Below are positions 38,359-49,364 of a stretch of DNA of 64,000 nt, piece by piece. The DNA lies in assembly GCA_004173235.1 (NCBI GenBank), contig SEAC01000020.1, positions 84,678 to 148,677 of the forward strand, written 5' to 3'. The DNA comes from Chitinophagaceae bacterium (GTDB lineage: Bacteria; Bacteroidota; Bacteroidia; Chitinophagales; Chitinophagaceae). The notes below the pieces were generated by a model. It searched no databases. It saw only the letters and a program-made list of their open reading frames with translations, and was not told the DNA's origin. Made by a program: the position numbers and the translations under genes. Within the stretch, counting starts at the first letter, position 1, and every line of letters starts with the position of its first letter.

Positions 38359-38978
38359 GACCTCGCCCCCGGCCCCTCTCCCAGGAGAGGGGTGCCTCTG
38401 CGGGACATTTTTTTCTGTCTTCTAACTGCCTTTCTTTGAGAAAAACACCGCCTGAATGTGGTGAAAAACACATGGTTCAGTCACTTGAAGTTGGGTTCTT
38501 TAGTGCATGAAAAGGCCGATCAGGAAACACTATGAATTATCCCATCCAGCCATCTACAAGTTTGTTTTCCCTTTCGCAAAAGAAAATCGCAAGTCACCCA
38601 CTGCAGCTGAAGCGAAGCTTTGGAAACACATCAAAAATCGCCAGATAGACGGTTTCAAGTTTCGACGGCAGCATGTTGTTGATCGTTACATACCCGATTT
38701 CATTTGTATCGATGTGCGATTGATTGTGGAGGTTGATGGCAGCATTCATGAAGAAGAGGAACAACGCAAATATGATCTGGAGCGCACGTCCGATCTGGAA
38801 GCACTGGGTTTTAAATTAATCCGATTCACCAACGAACAAGTTCTGGAACATACACGTGTTGTATTGGACGAAATACGAAGGGCGCTTCATGAATGTGCAA
38901 CCAACATGCAGCAACAAACTAATTAGTCTGTACAACTGAGGCACCCCTCTCCTTTGGAGAGGGGCCGGGGGTAAGGTC
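38359..38978. mobile_element. DUF559 gene bracketed by ~40-bp inverted REP-like repeats
   Basis: Left GACCTCGCCCCCGGCCCCTCTCCCAGGAGAGGGGTGCCTC (38359-38398); right arm 38938-38978 has reverse complement GACCTTACCCCCGGCCCCTCTCCAAAGGAGAGGGGTGCCTC. Confidence 0.7.
38507..38926 (+). CDS. DUF559 (Vsr-like) endonuclease domain protein
   Basis: RKSPTAAEAKLW, GFKFRRQH, YIPDFIC, VEVDGSIH, IRFTNEQV; AT-richer than the flanks. Confidence 0.9.
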   Translation: MKRPIRKHYELSHPAIYKFVFPFAKENRKSPTAAEAKLWKHIKNRQIDGFKFRRQHVVDRYIPDFICIDVRLIVEVDGSIHEEEEQRKYDLERTSDLEALGFKLIRFTNEQVLEHTRVVLDEIRRALHECATNMQQQTN

Positions 38979-42035: not shown

Positions 42036-43397
42036 TTACCTCGCCATATCAATCTTAATCTTCTTCCCCTTCAGCTTTTCGTCTTTGATGTCGGCGAGCA
42101 CGCGGGAGGCCTGGCTGCGGCGCACGGCGGCGAAGGCCATATGGTCTTTCACCTCGATGATGCCGATGTCTTCTTTGTTGAGGCCGCCCACTTTGGAGAG
42201 GAAGCCCACGATGTCGATCTTGTTCACCTTGTCTTTTTTGCCGGCGCTGATGTAGAGCGTTGTCCAGCGCGGCTTTTCGGGCAGCTGCAGGTCTTCGGGC
42301 AGCTCGATGAAATCGACGGGCCCGGTGATGTATTCGGGGATGTCTTCGCCGGGGCTTACGATGAGCACGGCGGTCCCCGAGGCGTCGGCGCGGGCGGTGC
42401 GGCCGTTGCGGTGGGTGAACTCCGACTCGGAGTTGGGAATATGGTAGTGCACCACGGCGCGGATGTGCGGGATGTCGAGGCCGCGCGCGGCGAGGTCGGT
42501 GGTAACGAGGAAGGGGTCGGAGCCGTTGCGGAAGCGGGCGAGGGCCACTTCGCGTTCGCGCTGCTCGAGGGCGCCGTGGTACCAGCCGGCGGCGATGCCG
42601 GCTTCGCGGAGGTAGCTGGCCGTGCGCTCCACGCTTTCGCGGTGGTTGAGGAAGATGATGGCGGGGCCGCGGCCGAGGAGGCAGAGGTAGCGGAAGAGCG
42701 TGTCGAGCTTGTCTTTTTCGGAAGCACGCAGTGCCTGCAGCGTGAGGCGGGCGCCGAAGCTGACGCCGGCTTCCTCGTCGTCGGTTTGTCCGTCGGCGCG
42801 TGTAGACGGGTCGGCTTCGTGGCGCAGCACGTGCGCGTTGGAAGCACCCACGAATGCGGGTATCTCGGCGGAGGTGGCGGAGGTGAGGATGCGTTTTTGG
42901 ATGTTGGGCAGGTGGCTGAGCACTTCTTCGAGTTCGTCCTGGAAGCCCAGCTCTACCGACTTGTCGAATTCGTCGAGCACGAGGAAGGTGACGGTGTCTT
43001 TGTGGATGTTGCCGCGGCGCAGGTGATCGGCGAGGCGGCCGGGGGTGCCCACGATGAGCACGGGTGCTTCGCCGGCGATGGACGTTTCTTCGATCTCGCG
43101 TTTGTGGCCGCCATAGGTGGCCAGCACCTTGCGGCCGGTCTTCAGTTTGCGCCACACTTCTTCGATCTGGAGGGCGAGCTCGCGCGAGGGCGTTACGATG
43201 ACGGCCTGCGTGGAGATGCCTGGCTGCAGGCCGTTGAGGATGGGCAGCAGGAAGGCGAGCGTCTTGCCCGAGCCCGTGGGCGCGAGCAGCACGAGGTTGT
43301 CGTGTTCCTCCGCGGCGGCAAGCGCCGACTCCTGCATCGGGTTAAGGGCGGCGATGTTGAGGTTGGAGAGGAGGGAGGGGAGATTGAGGGGGGGCAT
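42036..43397 (-). CDS. DEAD/DEAH box RNA helicase with DbpA-type C-terminal RNA-binding domain
   Basis: Q-motif LNPMQ, APTGSGKT, PSRELALQ, GTPGR, DEFD, SAT, ARGLD, HRNGRTAR, C-terminal AGKKDKVNKIDIVGFL. Confidence 0.93.
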   Translation of the reverse strand: MPPLNLPSLLSNLNIAALNPMQESALAAAEEHDNLVLLAPTGSGKTLAFLLPILNGLQPGISTQAVIVTPSRELALQIEEVWRKLKTGRKVLATYGGHKREIEETSIAGEAPVLIVGTPGRLADHLRRGNIHKDTVTFLVLDEFDKSVELGFQDELEEVLSHLPNIQKRILTSATSAEIPAFVGASNAHVLRHEADPSTRADGQTDDEEAGVSFGARLTLQALRASEKDKLDTLFRYLCLLGRGPAIIFLNHRESVERTASYLREAGIAAGWYHGALEQREREVALARFRNGSDPFLVTTDLAARGLDIPHIRAVVHYHIPNSESEFTHRNGRTARADASGTAVLIVSPGEDIPEYITGPVDFIELPEDLQLPEKPRWTTLYISAGKKDKVNKIDIVGFLSKVGGLNKEDIGIIEVKDHMAFAAVRRSQASRVLADIKDEKLKGKKIKIDMAR

Positions 43398-43556
43398 GGG
43401 GCGAAGGTACGCGCAAGAAGGCGCTTAGTAGGTTTGACTTACGCAAATGGGAATTATCCGGCACAGATATCGATTTTAGATTTTAACCAGGCACGAAATT
43501 TTTGGGGGAGAACCTTGGACTTCACCTTGATTATTCATCAAGTACGATTTGACAAG

Positions 43557-45833
43557 CTAGTATTGATATTTCTTACCCTGTTCGATCAACAATGACGGCC
43601 AGAAAGAAGGATTGATGATGTACACGATCTCGCGTTTGAACTTGTGTATAAATCCTTTTAAAAGAGGCATGTTGTAGTTGAAATTGTAGATATAGTGAGG
43701 GGTGTCATCAGATATCCTCTTAACGCCAAGGAATCCGTGCCAAAGTAGCAAGTCGACAACTTTGGCTGTTAGTCCCTGTGGCGGAACTACTTCTTCTAAC
43801 AAATTAGTTAGTTTATTTTCAGAAAGTTCCGGCTCAGAAGCGATAAACGTGTAGAGAATGTTTTCCGCCTCAGGCAGCACATCTCGGATTTCGTAGTTGA
43901 TATCCGTCAACAGGTCAGTTGAGTAAGAGCGAAAGCCTTTCTCAATGTCATCCGCTTCAATTTTGATATGATTTAAGTTCACTGCAAAGCCTTTGCATTG
44001 GTTGATGATATTGATCAAAAATCGTGGCCTCATTAAAGATCGCTCGATCAGGTACTGAGAGGTCTCTTCTCCCTTATAATGACTGACACAGATTTTTCTC
44101 CAAATGTTTTCGAAAGTGTCTGTTTCGATTTCCAAACTTGAAACAATTCTCAGTCTTAGTATTTCACGCAATAGATCTGGATCTACCCAGTCAATGAGTT
44201 CTTTAGCTTCTTTTTGTCGATCCGATGTTTTCTCCACCAACAATTCATAAACGTCGTTTCTCAAGAAGAGTATAGGGTACAAATCAATTCTCTCTTTGCT
44301 CAGACTCCTTTGTATGTTCCGCAACGCATCTATTAGCGTTCTCATAATTAAGAAGTCTTCATGTTGTAATCCCGATGAAGGCCAACCCTTATCGATATTG
44401 TCAAGTAGAAGCCAAACTTTATCCTTGTGTTTCAAATAATTAACCAAGTCATTTCTTAATGCAGAGATGTCTGACTTGTGCAGCAGATTCGTTATCTCTG
44501 GGATTGAAAGCCTAATGTTAGTGGACTGTCCAAATTTGATTTTATATGAGCTCGTCAAATTGTCCATGAGCTTTGACATTCTCTCAGAAAAATCACCTTC
44601 AGTTAAATAATGCTCTTTTTTATAGCTTTCTGCTAAAGCTCGATAGGGTTCGAATAAGTTCGTATCAATTTTATGCCTGCTTTTGTCATTTTCGATAACC
44701 CGGTGACAAATTTCTAGTAAAAGGATGTACTCCCAAAATGCTGTTATAGTATGACTCAGTGTGCCTTCCTGCAAATATTGCAGAATCTGTTCTTTGAACT
44801 TGATAAGTTTGTAGCCCTCTGGCTTGAGATCTAAAACGATGTTTTTGCTTTTGCTTCTTTCTTTGTCACGTATTTGAAGAAAGATTGCAGACTTACCGGA
44901 CCCCTTTCGACCAACAACCAATTGAACCTCTCCCCTCAAAGCTCGATTAAAAGCATCGGTCTTAAGATAGTAGCCTTGCAGGGTCTTCATTTCATTCTCG
45001 GCTGAGGAAGAGCCGAAATCAAGCTTTTGTAAAATGGTAGTGTCCCTAGACGTTTCGTAGGAATGTCCGTCTTGGAAGGCTTCAACAACCTTCGCTGCAA
45101 ATTCTGCAACGATTGTGTCGATATCATCAAAGTTGTAATAAACGTTTACAAAATCCCGATAGTCAATTGGCACGGGATCGTCACCATGTTGTAGGACGCA
45201 AACTGCTTTTTCCATTCCGTGGGCGAGCCCAAGAATGAATGCTGCTCGTAGGTTATGAATTTTATGATCAGTTGTTTCTTTCGATAGGAGAGATACTAGC
45301 ACGCCGTACGATTGTGAGACCTGATTGATGGCATCATTAGCTGATAGTCGTGGCGTTTCGTTTGGGTCGAAGCTCCTATATATGTACCGAGCCTTCTTTA
45401 TCCTAGAAGTAATCCTAGTTGCGTAATCTGTCTTGAATTTCTGTTCTAAGATGTACAAGGGTGCTTTGTTGTTTAGTTTTGGGGCATCTCCCCTGAGGGC
45501 ATTAGTTTTTGAATGTAAGAGTACCTTATAGAGTTCATCTGAGTTATTATATTCTAGATACCCGATAGTGTCAAAAATTCCGACCTCCGCGATCTTAGGA
45601 TCCATTTCAATAATCGCCTTGTTCTTTACAAGGAGAACTTTTTTGCCTTTACCAATTGCATATCCGACTTCGTAGGTGACGTTAAAATTCAAAGCCGTTA
45701 TGTCAGCAACAAAGGAATCCTCTTGATTGATCGCATCCTGAATACTGGAGATAATGAAAGCGCCAACTATGTCCAACTCCTTCCAAGACCTGATTTTCTG
45801 GTCCAGTCCATTGTATTTTTGAACAGCACTCAA
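43557..45833 (-). CDS. NDT/TIR-like domain(s) fused to a FunZ/Sll1717-like P-loop ATPase; probably 5'-truncated; candidate defence protein
   Basis: ADITALNFNVTYEVGYAIG, GSSSAENE, VVGRKGSGKS (Walker A), WLLLDNIDK (Walker B), FLRND, RPR; AT-rich codons; only a TTG start, with an in-frame stop at 45840-45842. Confidence 0.8.
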   Translation of the reverse strand: MSAVQKYNGLDQKIRSWKELDIVGAFIISSIQDAINQEDSFVADITALNFNVTYEVGYAIGKGKKVLLVKNKAIIEMDPKIAEVGIFDTIGYLEYNNSDELYKVLLHSKTNALRGDAPKLNNKAPLYILEQKFKTDYATRITSRIKKARYIYRSFDPNETPRLSANDAINQVSQSYGVLVSLLSKETTDHKIHNLRAAFILGLAHGMEKAVCVLQHGDDPVPIDYRDFVNVYYNFDDIDTIVAEFAAKVVEAFQDGHSYETSRDTTILQKLDFGSSSAENEMKTLQGYYLKTDAFNRALRGEVQLVVGRKGSGKSAIFLQIRDKERSKSKNIVLDLKPEGYKLIKFKEQILQYLQEGTLSHTITAFWEYILLLEICHRVIENDKSRHKIDTNLFEPYRALAESYKKEHYLTEGDFSERMSKLMDNLTSSYKIKFGQSTNIRLSIPEITNLLHKSDISALRNDLVNYLKHKDKVWLLLDNIDKGWPSSGLQHEDFLIMRTLIDALRNIQRSLSKERIDLYPILFLRNDVYELLVEKTSDRQKEAKELIDWVDPDLLREILRLRIVSSLEIETDTFENIWRKICVSHYKGEETSQYLIERSLMRPRFLINIINQCKGFAVNLNHIKIEADDIEKGFRSYSTDLLTDINYEIRDVLPEAENILYTFIASEPELSENKLTNLLEEVVPPQGLTAKVVDLLLWHGFLGVKRISDDTPHYIYNFNYNMPLLKGFIHKFKREIVYIINPSFWPSLLIEQGKKYQY

Positions 45834-46041
45834 AGCGTATCACAAAAGCCTGGGTGATGCCGGAAAGGGGGTAGATGAGGCTGCGGCGGCCCTGCGCAGT
45901 GCCCGAAGCGAGCGCAACAAACTTTTTTATGATGAAGAGCGCGGGATGAGCGCACGCCGCAAGCTTATGGGCAACTACTTCAAATCGCGCAAAGGCGGCG
46001 ACAACCCGCTGAAGGGAATTTCGTTTCGCAACTTCGGATAA
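45823..46041 (+). pseudogene. 3' fragment of a hypothetical protein gene with no start codon for the fragment
   Basis: Open frame ...AAALRSARSERNKLFYDEERGMSARRKLMGNYFKSRKGGDNPLKGISFRNFG* in host-like GC, followed by a terminator. Confidence 0.55.
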
Positions 46042-46070
46042 CAACACACGCATTTTGGTGAACCATCTAC

Positions 46071-46103
46071 GAGTCGCTCCTTTCGCGGAGGGGCTCTTTT
46101 TTT
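46071..46103 (+). terminator. Rho-independent terminator
   Basis: GAGTCGCTCC-TTTCGC-GGAGGGGCTC-TTTTTTT. Confidence 0.7.
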
Positions 46104-46173
46104 GCAAAACGCAGCCGGCTGTACGTGGGATGAGCGCGCTTTACACCGCAAGGGCTACGCCGCTGTAACCGAG

Positions 46174-46446
46174 GGTTGAGCGAAGGTTGTGTGGGGTAGC
46201 GGCAAAGTCGGGCGGGGGTAGGCCTCCGGCATACGTGGTTGTGCCGTCGTTGCGCGTGGTTATGGCTCCGTCGTTCGGGGTTGCGCCTTCGCTCTGCGGG
46301 GTTATGGCTCCGTCGTTTGGGGTTGCGCCTTCGCTCTGCGGGGTTATGGCATCGTCGTTTGTGGTTGGGGCTCCGTGGTATGCGGTTTTGCCACCGTTGC
46401 GCGGGGTTGAAGCATCGGTGGAAGCCAGTGTGCCACCGTTGCAGGT
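46174..46446 (+). repeat. Degenerate 21-bp tandem array (about 13 units; one near-exact 42-bp duplication)
   Basis: Most units start GGTT/GGGT every 21 nt; GGTTGCGCCTTCGCTCTGCGG at 46279 and 46321; GGTTATGGCTCCGTCGTT at 46258 and 46300. Confidence 0.85.
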
Positions 46447-46993: not shown

Positions 46994-47891
46994 CGGCGCC
47001 CATCACGCAGCTGCGGTGCGGGCTGCAGGAAGCATGTGGGATGCTCCATCGGGTGGCGTCATTCCGGTGCGCAGCACTGGGATCTAAAGGGGGGTGATGC
47101 TACAACGCGCAGCGGGGACATCAACGAGGGTGTTGCACTACGCGCAGCACCGGGATCTAAAGGAGGGTGATGCATTTTGCCAGGGGGAATGCCGGCCAGG
47201 GGCTTTCGTTCTATGCGTCCGCGGCGTCCCCGCGCGCATGCGTCGCCCTCATTCCCTTCGCGCATGCCTCTCCGTCATTCCCCGGCGCATGCGCGGCGCA
47301 TAGATCCCGGCGGCAAGCGCCGGGATGACGGCGCTGCGCGGGGCGCAAAGGGGCCCCATGACAGCAGTATCCTCTGTTCCGGGCATCCGGGTGATGGGGC
47401 CCCGTAAGTGCAGGATTTCCTCATTCCTGCGTCCAAGCCGCGAATGTTCCCCCGCGTGTGCGCGGCCATCATTCCCCCGGCGCATCCGCGGCGCATAGAT
47501 CCCGGCGGCAAGCGCCGGGATGACGGCCCTGCGCGGGGCGCAAAGGGGCCCCATGTCAGCAGTATCCTTTGTTCCGGGCATCCGGGCGATGGGGCCCCTT
47601 AGGTGCAGGACTTCCTCGTTCCTGCGTGCGAGTCGCGACTGTTCCCCTGAGTGTGCGGCGCCCTCATTCCCCCCGCGCATACGCGGCGCGTAGATCCCGG
47701 CGGCAAGCGCCGGGATGACGGCCCTGCGCGGGGCGCAAAGGGGCCCCATGGCAGCAGACCCCTCTGTTCCGGGCATCCGGGTGATGGGGCCCCGTAAGTG
47801 CAGGATTTCCTCGCGGAATACTGGGAATAATCCCATGAACTGCTGGCCAAATGCACAGTGCGGGCGACAATGTGGGTTGCACCTTAGATGG

Positions 47892-48233
47892 ATGAAAGGC
47901 GGATACACGTACATACTCACCAACTACCGGCGCACGGTCCTTTACGTCGGCGTCACCAGCGATCTGCGCCGCAGGTTGCGCGAGCACCGGGAACAACTTC
48001 ATCCTGGTTCTTTCACGGCGCGCTACCAGTGCTTCTACCTTGTCTACTTCGAACAGGTGCCCGGTATTGTTGCCGCTATCCAAAGGGAAAAGCAATTGAA
48101 AGAATGGCCCCGCCAACGCAAGCTGGAACTAATCCGCACCGTCAACCCGCACCTGTATTTCTACCACCCACACACCTTACTGCTCTCCGATACCCGAAAC
48201 CCCTTGTGCAGCCGCGGTGTATGCTGCCGTTAA
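47892..48233 (+). CDS. GIY-YIG nuclease family protein
   Basis: MKGGYTYILTN...LYVGVTSDLRRRLREH...FTARY...LVYFE...AIQREKQLK; ATG 47892. Confidence 0.92.
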   Translation: MKGGYTYILTNYRRTVLYVGVTSDLRRRLREHREQLHPGSFTARYQCFYLVYFEQVPGIVAAIQREKQLKEWPRQRKLELIRTVNPHLYFYHPHTLLLSDTRNPLCSRGVCCR

Positions 48234-48488
48234 ATGTGGTGGATGCTACATCGGGGGGCCTTCCTTTATAAAAAAAGGGGAGCCGTCATCCCGGCGCTTG
48301 CCGCCGGGATCTAAAGAGGATGAAGCCAGGATGCGCAGCGCCGGGATCTAATGGGGATGATGCACTCCGCGCCGCGCCGGGATGACGGGCGTCGCAGGAA
48401 CGCATCGGGCCCCATGACAGCATCTCCCTCTGTCCCGGCATCCGGGCGATGGGGCCCCGTTAGTGCAGGACCTCCTCGCGGAATACTA

Positions 48489-48950
48489 CGCGCAGCGCCG
48501 GGATCGAATGCTGATAATGCACTCCGCGCAACACGGGGATCTAAAGTGGAGGATGCAGTAAGCGCAACACCGGGATCTAAAGGGGAGGATACACTCCGCG
48601 CAGCACCGGGATGTAATGGGGCGTTGCATTGCGCGCAGTCGTTGGAGGTATGCAAAGGGGTACTTTCATACTGTCCATTGCGATTGTTCCCCCAACGCAG
48701 TCGCCGGTAGATCCCGGCGGCAAGCGCCGGGATGACGGCGCTGCGCGGGGCGCAAAGGGGCCCCATGACAGCATCTCCCTCTGTCCCAGCATCCGGGCGA
48801 TGGGGCCCCGTTAGTGCAGGACCTCCTCGCGGAATACTACGCGCAGCGCCGGGATCGAATGCTGATGATGCACTCCGCGCAACACCGGGATCAAAAGGGG
48901 AGGATGCAGTAAGCGCAACACCGGGATCTAAAGGGGAGGAAGTCTTGGCG
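48489..48950 (+). repeat. Two runs of degenerate 36-bp tandem repeats (further units at 47068-47175 and 48330-48380)
   Basis: CGCGCARCRCCGGGATCTAAAGGGGAGGATGCACTC-like units at 48489, 48525, 48561, 48597 and 48840, 48876, 48912. Confidence 0.85.
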
Positions 48951-49364
48951 CAGCGCCCGAGGAACAATGAAAGAGTTTCCATTGCCAGGCTTGTGCGGAC
49001 GCTACTGCCGGATCATGTGGTGGATGCTACATCGGGGGCCTTCCTTTAAAAAAAAAAGGGGAGCCGTCATCCCGGCGCTGCCGCCGGGATCTAAAGAGGA
49101 TGAAGCCAGGATGCGCAGCACCAGATGGAACCAAACAAAAAGCCGCCCCTCGCGGAACGGCCCTTCTATAGAGACCAAGATCTTTATCCCTTGCAGCTTT
49201 GAAGTACACTGCGGAAGCACTAAAAATAACGTTCGCGAGCCAACGGTGCGGGCCCAGGGGAACGAAAGCTGCTTTTGTGGGACGCAATGTTCCTGCACAG
49301 TGCGGCCACGGCACCCCGCGTGCTGCGTATGGCCCTGCGGTAATTTGCAGTCTCAAAGAAACCT

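What the first reader, a model, noticed from the sequence alone, without database searches (positions are those of the whole stretch)
43557..45839. AT-rich NDT/TIR-like + FunZ/Sll1717-type ATPase: candidate single-gene anti-phage system
Seen: a 758-aa ORF of roughly 40% GC by eye in a ~60% GC genome. It has an N-terminal ADIT-x2-N-x-NV-x-YEVGYA-x-G motif, a second similar Rossmann-like segment lacking the Glu (RAAFILGLAHG), then GSSSAENE, Walker A GRKGSGKS, Walker B LLLDNID, FLRND, RPR and a likely winged-helix end (LLWHGFLG). Known: the YE-x-G motif is the catalytic signature of nucleoside 2'-deoxyribosyltransferase/TIR-like glycosidases, which act as nucleotide-depleting or signalling effectors in several defence systems; effector + P-loop ATPase fusions typify NLR-like Avs defence. 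Inference: an ATPase-gated nucleotide glycosidase with a tandem active/inactive domain pair, not matching a named system I can recall.
Basis: partly seen in the sequence, partly recalled or inferred. Interest (0 to 1): 0.76.

Follow-up and report, generated by a model that had tools for sequence, protein, structure and literature searches.

The report
Truncated NDT-ATPase candidate phage-defence gene
This foreign, AT-rich gene belongs to a widespread but untested family that looks like a one-protein antiviral system (a base-sugar-bond-cleaving enzyme head on an ATP-driven switch), but the copy here has lost the start of the gene and its promoter, so it is probably dead.

Summary
The ORF is real: 43557-45833 (-), 758 aa, GC 0.40 against about 0.6 in the flanks. 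Every quoted motif is present.

**Architecture**
- Residues 273-748 are a full-length Sll1717-family P-loop ATPase (323 bits; cutoff 75).
- The N-terminus is two Rossmann-like domains. The first is DNPH1/NDT-like, with an invariant Glu. The second has the same topology but no Glu.

**Family**
- It is large and spread across many phyla by horizontal transfer. It occurs on plasmids and is absent from about 50,000 phage genomes.
- It has no conserved partner gene.
- It often sits beside R-M, Thoeris-TIR, Hachiman, Abi, integrase and resolvase genes.
- Close homologs of the same ATPase carry SIR2, caspase, CHAT or cold-shock heads instead.
- This supports an NLR-like, ATPase-gated effector. The family is unvalidated and unnamed; its only tested relative, DS-41, is remote.

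**New for this window**
- The copy is 5'-truncated. It lacks about 18 residues that all 59 intact homologs have, including the first strand of the enzyme domain.
- The break is a back-to-back junction that also removed about 70% of the neighbouring gene. An independent assembly reproduces it.
- The first in-frame ATG lies after the catalytic Glu.

Verdict: a probable recent relic of a candidate defence gene.

The parts
43557..45833 (-). 5'-truncated ORF (758 aa from TTG): remnant of NDT-like domain 1, degenerate domain 2 and an Sll1717-family ATPase
   Evidence: GC 0.401, GC3 0.437.
45504..45833 (-). Remnant of domain 1 (residues 1-110), DNPH1/NDT-like. It lacks beta1 and most of helix A.
   Evidence: Homolog model: beta1 at residues 2-6 and helix A at 12-27. 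Window model: residues 9-27 are coil with pLDDT 49-64. Alignments.
45651..45707 (-). Catalytic-type motif ADITALNFNVTYEVGYAIG (Glu55)
   Evidence: Glu, N49 and N51 are invariant in A1. The motif aligns with AEVTQPSLGVGYELGRA of Rcl/DNPH1. Coordinates.
45066..45473 (-). Domain 2 (residues 121-256): same alpha/beta topology. HNLRAAFILGLAHG replaces the Glu motif.
   Evidence: No Pfam or PDB sequence hit. hhalign against domain 1 is not significant.
43590..45017 (-). Sll1717-family P-loop ATPase module (residues 273-748), matching the full length of the model
   Evidence: NF047389, 323 bits, cutoff 75. Fold hits to Orc1/Cdc6, RuvB, Rpt and RPP1 are at marginal E-values.
44889..44912 (-). Walker A, GRKGSGKS (Lys314)
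   Evidence: Invariant G308, R309, K310, G311, G313 and K314. Coordinates.
44391..44411 (-). Walker B, LLLDNID
   Evidence: Invariant D478, N479 and D481. Coordinates.
44253..44267 (-). FLRND motif (a candidate for sensor 1 or the arginine)
   Evidence: Invariant F523, L524, R525, N526 and D527. The role is inferred.
44022..44030 (-). RPR motif (a candidate for sensor 2 or the arginine finger)
   Evidence: Invariant R602, P603 and R604. The role is inferred.
45834..45842 (.). Truncation junction: the low-GC gene meets high-GC DNA. An in-frame TGA lies at 45840-45842.
   Evidence: The junction is reproduced in the independent Logan contig L094, which is 100% identical over window 43102-46306.
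45823..46041 (+). Startless C-terminal fragment (72 codons) of a divergent high-GC gene. About 70% of that gene is missing.
   Evidence: It aligns to the C-terminus of the 254-aa paralog L002:967-1731.
46076..46094 (+). Terminator-like hairpin followed by a T-run, closing the truncated + strand gene
43440..43556 (.). Low-GC 3' flank of the foreign segment, ahead of the native DEAD-box helicase gene (42036-43397, -)

Best explanation
The feature is a recently truncated, probably inactive copy of a horizontally mobile single-gene cassette.

**How the intact family protein (about 770 aa) is built**
1. A DNPH1/NDT-like N-glycosidase domain with a nucleophile-type Glu.
2. A second domain of the same fold that has lost the Glu.
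3. An Sll1717-family AAA+-like P-loop ATPase with a helical and winged-helix-like tail.

**Most likely mechanism (inferred)**
- The ATPase and its tail sense an invader cue.
- They bind ATP and oligomerise.
- This switches on the N-terminal glycosidase, which destroys NAD+ or a (deoxy)nucleotide pool and stops phage replication (abortive infection).

**What happened in this genome**
- A deletion or illegitimate recombination joined the gene back-to-back to a native gene.
- It removed the first ~18 codons, including beta1 (which I take, from the flavodoxin-like fold's usual 2-1-3-4-5 strand order, to be the central strand), together with the native start and promoter, and about 70% of the divergent neighbour.
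- What remains can start only at weak TTG codons, or at an ATG beyond the catalytic Glu. The effector is therefore very likely non-functional.

**Shown:** the architecture, motif conservation, head swapping, gene contexts, and the truncation and its junction.
**Inferred:** the trigger, oligomerisation, the substrate, phage protection, and loss of function.
For: **Architecture**
- NF047389 at 323 bits.
- DNPH1/Rcl by profile at E=3e-4, aligned on the Glu.
- N-terminal model of a full-length homolog: pLDDT 91, two alpha/beta domains.
- Fold matches: DNPH1/NDT at TM 0.6-0.71; SARM1 TIR at 0.51.
- Glu55, N49, N51, the Walker A/B residues, RND and RPR are invariant in 48 sequences from several phyla.

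**Immune-type logic**
- ATPase homologs 43-47% identical, all true NF047389 members, carry other heads: SIR2 (P0136), CHAT (P0147), an EACC1-type caspase (P0162) and a cold-shock domain (G036).
- The module is remotely homologous to DS-41, a validated E. coli anti-phage gene.
- No partner gene is conserved in 72 loci.
- The most frequent families among neighbours within 3 genes are ThsB_TIR, ResIII, integrase, resolvase and HNH. R-M types I, III and IV, HamA, AbiD, DrmD and SoFic also occur.
- Only 2 of 61 related genomes carry the ATPase family.
- Full-length copies lie on 15 plasmids and on no phage.
- About 8 of 72 copies are broken.

**Truncation**
- All 59 intact homologs have the missing segment.
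- The window model is disordered at residues 9-27.
- The stop codon and the GC jump lie at the junction.
- The neighbouring fragment has no start codon but does have a terminator.
- The junction is identical in an independent assembly.
- The window shows no trace of the missing peptide.
- The first in-frame ATG is codon 77.
Against: - No member of this architecture has been tested against phage. DS-41 is only a remote relative (33 bits against a cutoff of 370).
- The defence-neighbour association is qualitative. I had no background control.
- Many neighbours are ordinary housekeeping genes.
- Domain 1 stays below Pfam's NDT threshold (15-21 bits against 28.8).
- The substrate is unknown.
- The retained 758 codons have no stop or frameshift. 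They match 251 of 262 strongly conserved columns, with only conservative differences. The remainder could therefore still be expressed from a TTG and keep some ATPase-only function.
- The Logan contig probably comes from the same sample as the genome, so read-level proof of the junction is lacking.
Confidence: 0.6

Rival explanations
1. The window gene is still functional. It is translated from the TTG at 45833 or 45776 and read from a fortuitous upstream promoter. It works either as a complete system or as an effector-less ATPase, for example as a sensor, a decoy or a dominant regulator.
For: - The frame is open for 758 codons.
- 251 of 262 highly conserved columns are kept, which is within the family's own range of deviation.
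- The catalytic motif and the ATPase motifs are intact.
Against: - The missing residues F4, A6, Y7 and P11 are at least 90% conserved, and the segment is present in all 59 intact homologs.
- Beta1 is missing from the sheet, and in the window model residues 9-27 are low-confidence coil where the homolog has beta1, helix A and beta2.
- There is no ATG before codon 77.
- The native upstream region is gone.
Confidence: 0.17
2. The family is not an anti-phage system. It serves another role, such as conflict between mobile elements or plasmids, addiction, or regulated nucleotide salvage and detoxification (DNPH1-like cleansing of aberrant nucleotides under ATPase control).
For: - The closest solved relatives of domain 1 are DNPH1/Rcl nucleotide-sanitising enzymes.
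- Copies occur on plasmids and beside integrases, resolvases and ArdC/RadC.
- Some loci lie among housekeeping genes, for example next to ribonucleotide reductase.
Against: - Distribution is patchy (2 of 61 relatives).
- The composition is foreign.
- Sibling proteins on the same chassis carry SIR2, caspase and CHAT death-effector heads.
- The neighbours include R-M, Thoeris, Hachiman and Abi genes.
- A remote relative, DS-41, is validated as anti-phage.
Confidence: 0.13
3. The tandem N-terminal domains are ligand sensors rather than enzymes, by analogy with the SLOG domain of ThsA. In this reading the ATPase and its tail are the output.
For: - NDT, TIR and SLOG folds are related (general knowledge).
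- ThsB-TIR genes are the single most frequent neighbour family: 7 of 296 neighbours.
Against: - The ThsB genes are in only about 6 of 70 loci, where they belong to separate TPR-S/TIR/SLATT modules.
- There is no conserved partner gene that could generate a signal.
- The nucleophile-type Glu is nearly invariant.
- The same position on the chassis is taken by enzymes (SIR2, caspase, CHAT) in sibling proteins.
Confidence: 0.07
4. The truncation is an assembly artefact: a chimeric join at about 45835. The real genome carries an intact gene.
For: - The genome is a draft of 41 contigs.
- Both genes are cut at a single point, and the composition switches there.
Against: - A Logan contig of run SRR6998484, built by a different assembler, is 100% identical across 43102-46306 and spans both edges.
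- There is no repeat at the junction that could mislead an assembler.
Confidence: 0.05

Closest known systems
NCBIfam NF047389, 'P-loop ATPase, Sll1717 family' (an annotation-only family with no function assigned)
   Same: Residues 273-748 match the full length of the model at 323 bits (cutoff 75). All sibling architectures do too.
   Different: The family name covers only the ATPase chassis. It says nothing about the NDT-like pair or about function. I found no paper that mentions Sll1717.
DS-41 ('AAA2'), a single-gene E. coli anti-phage system from DefensePredictor (Science 2026, PMC13092281); NCBIfam NF053860
   Same: Its P-loop ATPase is remotely homologous across about 370 positions. It is a single gene. 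It has been validated against phage.
   Different: The window protein scores only 33 bits against a cutoff of 370. The DS-41 model starts at the ATPase, so it has no NDT-like head. It is a different family.
DNPH1/Rcl and nucleoside 2'-deoxyribosyltransferases (Pfam PF05014)
   Same: The fold matches (TM 0.6-0.71). The motif around the nucleophile Glu aligns..ADI..N.NVtYEvGyA.G.gK.. against ..AEV....GVGYELGRA...
   Different: The match is below Pfam's threshold. The position that I align, from memory of the Rcl sequence, to its helper Asp is not conserved. The domain is fused in tandem with a Glu-less copy and an ATPase. The substrate is unknown.
NLR-like single-protein defence systems (Avs/STAND, SIR2-STAND, bacterial TIR-NLR, bNACHT)
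   Same: The design logic is the same: an N-terminal death effector, then an NTPase switch, then a C-terminal sensor-like region. Effectors are swapped on one chassis (SIR2, caspase, CHAT, NDT). The top whole-chain fold hit is the plant TIR-NLR RPP1.
   Different: There is no NACHT, NB-ARC or STAND profile hit (nSTAND_NTPase5 E=0.16). There are no repeat-type sensor domains. The fold hits lean towards Orc1/Cdc6-type AAA+ at weak scores.
Swarozyc (a DUF4062 TIR-like NADase activated by the phage portal; bioRxiv 10.64898/2026.05.01.722283)
   Same: It is a defence protein with an NDT/TIR-related fold and a catalytic Glu, and it causes abortive infection by NAD+ depletion.
   Different: The window protein gives no DUF4062 hit. 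Swarozyc has no Sll1717 ATPase.

Membership tests
NCBIfam NF047389 (Sll1717-family P-loop ATPase) | HMM score for the whole protein of at least 75 bits, with a full-length match | tested here: met
   323.1 bits, E=3.5e-96, model positions 1-454 of 454, residues 273-748. 325 bits on the genome search.
NCBIfam NF047389 (Sll1717-family P-loop ATPase) | Intact Walker A Lys and Walker B acidic residues | tested here: met
   GRKGSGKS and LLLDNID are present and invariant in 48 sequences.
DS-41 anti-phage protein (NF053860, equivalog) | HMM score of at least 370 bits | tested here: not met
   33.1 bits. Siblings score 26-45 bits. This is remote homology only.
Nucleoside 2-deoxyribosyltransferase / DNPH1 superfamily (Pfam PF05014) | Pfam gathering score of 28.8 bits | tested here: not met
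   15.3 bits for the window protein. 21.3 bits for domain 1 of a full-length homolog.
Nucleoside 2-deoxyribosyltransferase / DNPH1 superfamily (Pfam PF05014) | Flavodoxin-like NDT fold, with the nucleophile Glu at the N-terminal end of the helix after beta3 | tested here: met
   Model pLDDT 91. DNPH1 4kxm TM 0.66 and NDT 7o62 TM 0.71, probability 1.0. The Glu aligns with the YELG Glu of Rcl. The window copy itself lacks beta1.
Nucleoside 2-deoxyribosyltransferase / DNPH1 superfamily (Pfam PF05014) | N-glycosidase or transferase activity on (deoxy)nucleosides or nucleotides | not testable with these tools
   This needs a biochemical assay.
TIR domain (PF01582, PF13676, PF08937) | Profile match to a TIR family | tested here: not met
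   No TIR family at E<=1. ThsB1 reaches E=0.68 by the PDB profile search. SARM1 TIR has TM about 0.51, weaker than NDT or DNPH1.
Swarozyc / DUF4062 TIR-like NADase | DUF4062 profile match | tested here: not met
   DUF4062 is absent from the Pfam hits at E<=1.
STAND / Avs (NACHT, NB-ARC) | STAND-type NTPase profile match | tested here: not met
   Only nSTAND_NTPase5 at E=0.16, and no NACHT or NB-ARC hit. PADLOC gives no Avs hit.
STAND / Avs (NACHT, NB-ARC) | Structural similarity of the NTPase, helical and winged-helix core | tested here: inconclusive
   RPP1 (7dfv_B) E=6e-4 but TM 0.21-0.28. Orc1/Cdc6 (2qby_A) TM 0.45 by target length. The full model has pTM of only 0.50.
Any PADLOC v2.0 defence system | Significant hit to a system model | tested here: not met
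   Only PDC-M28C at E=4.7e-4 and mad8 at E=0.015. The full-length homolog P0003 has no hit at 1e-5.
Defence-island-associated gene (operational criterion) | Homologs recurrently sit next to known defence genes, in variable contexts, with no conserved housekeeping neighbours | tested here: inconclusive
   The contexts are variable, and the most frequent neighbour families are defence or mobile-element genes. No background control or enrichment statistic was possible.

The most novel reading that the evidence does not exclude
The Sll1717 chassis is a separate, widespread NLR-like immune lineage that is neither STAND nor NACHT. It carries interchangeable death heads (NDT pair, SIR2, caspase, CHAT). 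The NDT-pair head is not an NADase. It is an intramolecular pseudo-dimeric, DNPH1-like N-glycosidase that destroys (deoxy)nucleotides, possibly phage-modified ones, once the ATPase detects infection. That would be a new effector chemistry for single-protein immunity.
Probability: 0.18. Interest if true: 0.8.

Novelty: new variant of a known kind. Interest (0 to 1): 0.45.

Why it matters
If a full-length member protects against phage, it would add a very widespread single-gene system. There are at least 1,900 homologs across more than eight phyla, some on conjugative-type plasmids.

Two features would be new:
- An ATPase chassis that has not been studied.
- An effector closer to nucleotide N-glycosidases than to the known TIR or SIR2 NADases. 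That could broaden the chemistry of abortive infection.

The same chassis carries SIR2, caspase and CHAT heads. This makes it a natural system for asking how one sensor-switch drives different effectors.

The window copy matters less. It shows how such genes are gained and quickly disabled in a genome, and it should not be used as the template for experiments.

Tried and rejected
- **Empty-site comparison.** The DEAD-box helicase ortholog exists in relatives, but nothing else is syntenic, so the original insertion site could not be reconstructed.
- **Literature.** 'Sll1717' gave no paper. 'FunZ' gave only irrelevant hits: Neisseria and Glaesserella gene names. A DNPH1 plus phage-defence search gave nothing useful. 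The eLife 2020 conflict-systems paper does not mention NDT, Cdc6 or SIR2.
- **Internal duplication by sequence.** The profile-profile comparison of domain 1 with domain 2 is not significant (E=0.14). The domain 2 profile finds no solved structure. I keep 'same fold, degenerate copy' on topology alone.
- **Thoeris-like link through ThsB neighbours.** Rejected. They are in about 6 of 70 loci and belong to separate TPR-S/TIR/SLATT modules.
- **Frameshift instead of deletion.** No upstream frame resembles the missing peptide.
- **Flanking direct repeats or an integrase in the window.** None found.
- **Phage-borne copies.** None.
Full report
**1. Observation**

The minus-strand frame 43557-45833 is open for 758 codons from a TTG.

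GC is 0.38-0.45 across 43500-46000 and about 0.6 on both sides. The gene has GC 0.401 and GC3 0.437. Its neighbours have GC 0.59-0.68 and GC3 0.66-0.86.

All the quoted motifs are present. I verified their coordinates by translation.

**2. What the protein is**

*ATPase module.* Residues 273-748 match the whole NCBIfam model NF047389, 'P-loop ATPase, Sll1717 family' (323 bits, cutoff 75). Pfam gives only weak generic AAA hits and a sub-threshold Nuc_deoxyrib_tr hit at residues 33-72. PADLOC v2 gives nothing meaningful.

*Conservation.* A 48-sequence alignment of homologs from several phyla has 70% mean column identity. The following are invariant:
- Glu55 of YEVGYA, N49 and N51
- the Walker A residues, including Lys314
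- D478, N479 and D481 of Walker B
- R525, N526 and D527
- R602, P603 and R604

*Domain 1.* A profile of domain 1 reaches only DNPH1/Rcl among solved structures (E=3e-4). The alignment covers the catalytic-Glu segment. ThsB1 and NDT entries follow at E of about 0.7-0.8.

*N-terminal model.* I modelled the N-terminal 280 residues of a full-length homolog (L022) with AlphaFold. The model is confident (pLDDT 91, pTM 0.91) and shows two consecutive alpha/beta domains of the same topology. Foldseek gives these matches:

| Match | TM-score by target length |
|---|---|
| DNPH1 and bacterial NDTs | 0.6-0.71 (probability 1.0) |
| SARM1 TIR | about 0.51 |

*Domain 2.* It has HN.RAAF[IL]AGLA.G where domain 1 has LNFNVTYE[IV]GYAIG, so the Glu is replaced by an aliphatic residue. 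The sequence evidence for a duplication is not significant (hhalign E=0.14). The 'dead copy' reading therefore rests on topology.

*Full-length model of the window protein.* It has pLDDT 80 and pTM 0.50. It gives marginal fold hits to a plant TIR-NLR (RPP1), to Orc1/Cdc6 (TM 0.45 by target length), and to RuvB, RuvBL and proteasomal AAA+ modules. The ATPase is AAA+-like. STAND membership is not shown.

**3. The family in nature**

- *Size and spread.* The word-indexed search found at least 1,913 homologs, mostly 767-790 aa. Their source names are 'P-loop ATPase, Sll1717 family', 'nucleoside 2-deoxyribosyltransferase' or 'TIR domain-containing'. 72 loci from species-representative genomes span Bacteroidota, Alpha-, Beta- and Gammaproteobacteria, Acidobacteriota, Melainabacteria, Desulfobacterota, Myxococcota and Kiritimatiellia.
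- *Patchiness.* Among 61 relatives of the window's genome, only one other genome has an Sll1717-family gene, and its architecture is different.
- *No partner gene.* I clustered all genes within five positions of the gene. The largest cluster occurs in 6 of about 70 loci, at scattered positions.
- *Neighbours.* Among 296 proteins within three genes, the most frequent Pfam families are ThsB_TIR (7), ResIII (5), Phage_integrase (5), Resolvase (3) and HNH (3). SLATT, PIN, HamA, Abi_2, Fic and ParE also occur. Many are one-off housekeeping genes. PADLOC adds type I, III, IV and IIG R-M, Hachiman, AbiD, DrmD, SoFic, NsnC, MADS and several PDC candidates. I could not compute an enrichment against a background.
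- *ThsB neighbours.* They belong to separate TPR-S/TIR/SLATT modules in a few Pseudomonas-type loci.
- *Single loci.* These show a conjugative-element setting with RadC and ArdC, an RtcB/Ro60 setting, and an Mrr/PLD setting.
- *Mobility.* Full-length copies lie on 15 plasmids from unrelated bacteria. None was found in 50,697 phage records.
- *Decay.* About 8 of 72 copies are broken.

**4. Swappable heads**

I ran an exhaustive search with the ATPase part alone. It found 2,326 representative clusters, 380 of them at E<=1e-30.

Most of the top hits have the ~295-residue NDT-pair head. Close ATPase homologs (43-47% identity), all of them true NF047389 members at 276-329 bits, carry other heads:
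- SIR2 of the ThsA/LmuA type (P0136)
- CHAT (P0147)
- an 'EACC1-associated' caspase (P0162)
- a cold-shock domain (relative G036)
- no head at all

This is the effector repertoire of NLR/Avs-like immune proteins. It is my strongest argument that the N-terminal position holds an effector and that the ATPase is a sensor-switch.

All variants hit the DS-41 model only remotely (26-45 bits, cutoff 370). DS-41 ('AAA2') is a single-gene E. coli system validated in the DefensePredictor study (PMC13092281).

**5. This copy is truncated**

- Homologs begin M..GF[FY]AY.S.P..IG.TIE.A. The window copy begins at ..SAVQKYNG.
- The missing ~18 residues include beta1. In the flavodoxin-like fold the usual strand order is 2-1-3-4-5, which would make beta1 the central strand; this is from general knowledge and I did not read the strand order off the model. 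In the model of the window protein, residues 9-27 are low-confidence coil where the homolog has beta1, helix A and beta2.
- The break is exactly where GC jumps. On the other side, the + strand frame 45823-46041 has no start codon. It matches only the last ~70 residues of a 254-aa paralog and ends at a terminator-like hairpin. One event therefore removed both 5' ends and the divergent promoter region.
- A Logan contig of run SRR6998484, built by another assembler, is 100% identical over 43102-46306. No repeat sits at the junction.
- The window holds no trace of the lost peptide.
- The in-frame start candidates are TTG at codons 1, 20 and 48. The first ATG is codon 77, beyond Glu55.
- The retained part is not degraded. 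It matches 251 of 262 columns that are at least 95% conserved. Five of the rest fall in the missing piece and six differ. One of those six is the TTG start codon read as Met and the other five are conservative changes. This is within the family's leave-one-out range of 0-17. The truncation is therefore recent, or the remainder is still under some selection.

**6. Mechanism**

I commit to the following model for the family:
1. The protein rests in an autoinhibited state.
2. The C-terminal helical and winged-helix-like region recognises an invader cue.
3. The ATPase binds ATP and oligomerises.
4. The NDT-like head is activated. It may work as an intramolecular pseudo-dimer with domain 2, since, as I recall them, NDT and DNPH1 enzymes act as dimers.
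5. The head hydrolyses the N-glycosidic bond of NAD+ or of a (deoxy)nucleotide.
6. Infection aborts.

The architecture, the conservation, the head swapping and the contexts are shown. Every dynamic step and the substrate are inferred.

For this window, the effector domain has lost part of its core and the gene has lost its start and promoter. The copy is most likely a recent relic.

**7. Comparison and novelty**

The protein is a member of the annotation-only Sll1717 ATPase family. These membership tests fail or are inconclusive: DS-41, Pfam NDT (by score), TIR, DUF4062/Swarozyc, STAND/Avs and every PADLOC system.

It works like an NLR-type single-protein defence system. The combination of an NDT pair with this chassis is, as far as the searched libraries and literature show, undescribed and untested.

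Earlier unverified notes of this scan describe the same family in other genomes and reach similar readings. I re-derived the points I use.

I rate it a new variant of a known kind. I set interest at 0.45 because the family is a good candidate, but it is unvalidated, it has already been seen repeatedly in this scan, and this particular copy is broken.

Noticed in passing
window 45823-46103: Startless 72-codon C-terminal fragment of a high-GC gene, followed by a terminator-like hairpin at 46076-46094. It is back-to-back with the truncated ATPase gene. Its only relative in the genome is a 254-aa protein of unknown function (L002:967-1731).
   Followed up: partly
window 46207-46395: Diverged array of repeats with a 21/42-nt period, directly beyond the truncated + strand gene (family D1 of the repeat search). 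Nature unknown.
   Followed up: no
window 38507-38926: A second small low-GC gene (GC 0.433, GC3 0.436) in a high-GC neighbourhood. By eye its product resembles DUF559/Vsr-like endonucleases. I did not test this against a library.
   Followed up: no
window 47000-49100: Repeat-rich stretch with near-identical ORF pieces on both strands (..IPALAAGIYAPRMRRG..). It surrounds a probable GIY-YIG-type gene at 47715-48233.
   Followed up: no
window 45546-45574 (-): A perfect 12/12 sigma-70-type promoter consensus (TTGACA, 17 nt, TATAAT) inside the ORF, downstream of codon 77. It is probably a chance match in AT-rich DNA, and the host may not use this promoter type.
   Followed up: no
L011 1489-3165 (-), relative genome G036: A 558-aa protein with an N-terminal cold-shock domain fused to a true Sll1717-family ATPase (278 bits). 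This is another head on the same chassis, possibly one that binds nucleic acid.
   Followed up: partly
P0136, P0147, P0162: Sll1717-family ATPases 43-47% identical to the window's module, carrying SIR2, CHAT and EACC1-type caspase heads of 500-665 residues. None is a PADLOC v2 system as a whole.
   Followed up: partly
L095 3968-6064 (E. coli plasmid p1303_109, NZ_CP009167.1): A 698-aa hypothetical protein whose N-terminal ~465 residues are 24% identical to the window's ATPase module. It is the passenger gene of a Tn3-family ISEc63 transposon (transposase plus resolvase). The same gene occurs on more than 100 enterobacterial plasmids, mostly conjugative.
   Followed up: partly
L041 12481-15744, and also L043, L084 and L091: A recurring module next to the family gene in Pseudomonas, Brenneria and Vreelandella: a TPR-S protein, a ThsB-like TIR, a SLATT_3-SLATT_1 two-transmembrane effector and a second TIR.
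   Followed up: partly
L071 (Acidobacteriaceae MAG), domain 1: An otherwise intact homolog has Ala in place of the catalytic Glu (FNISYAIGYGIG). It may be a natural effector-dead variant.
   Followed up: no
L091 10001-13169 (Vreelandella stevensii): The homolog's match is stretched over about 3.2 kb, and the called frame is only 533 aa. The gene seems to be interrupted by an insertion of about 1 kb.
   Followed up: no
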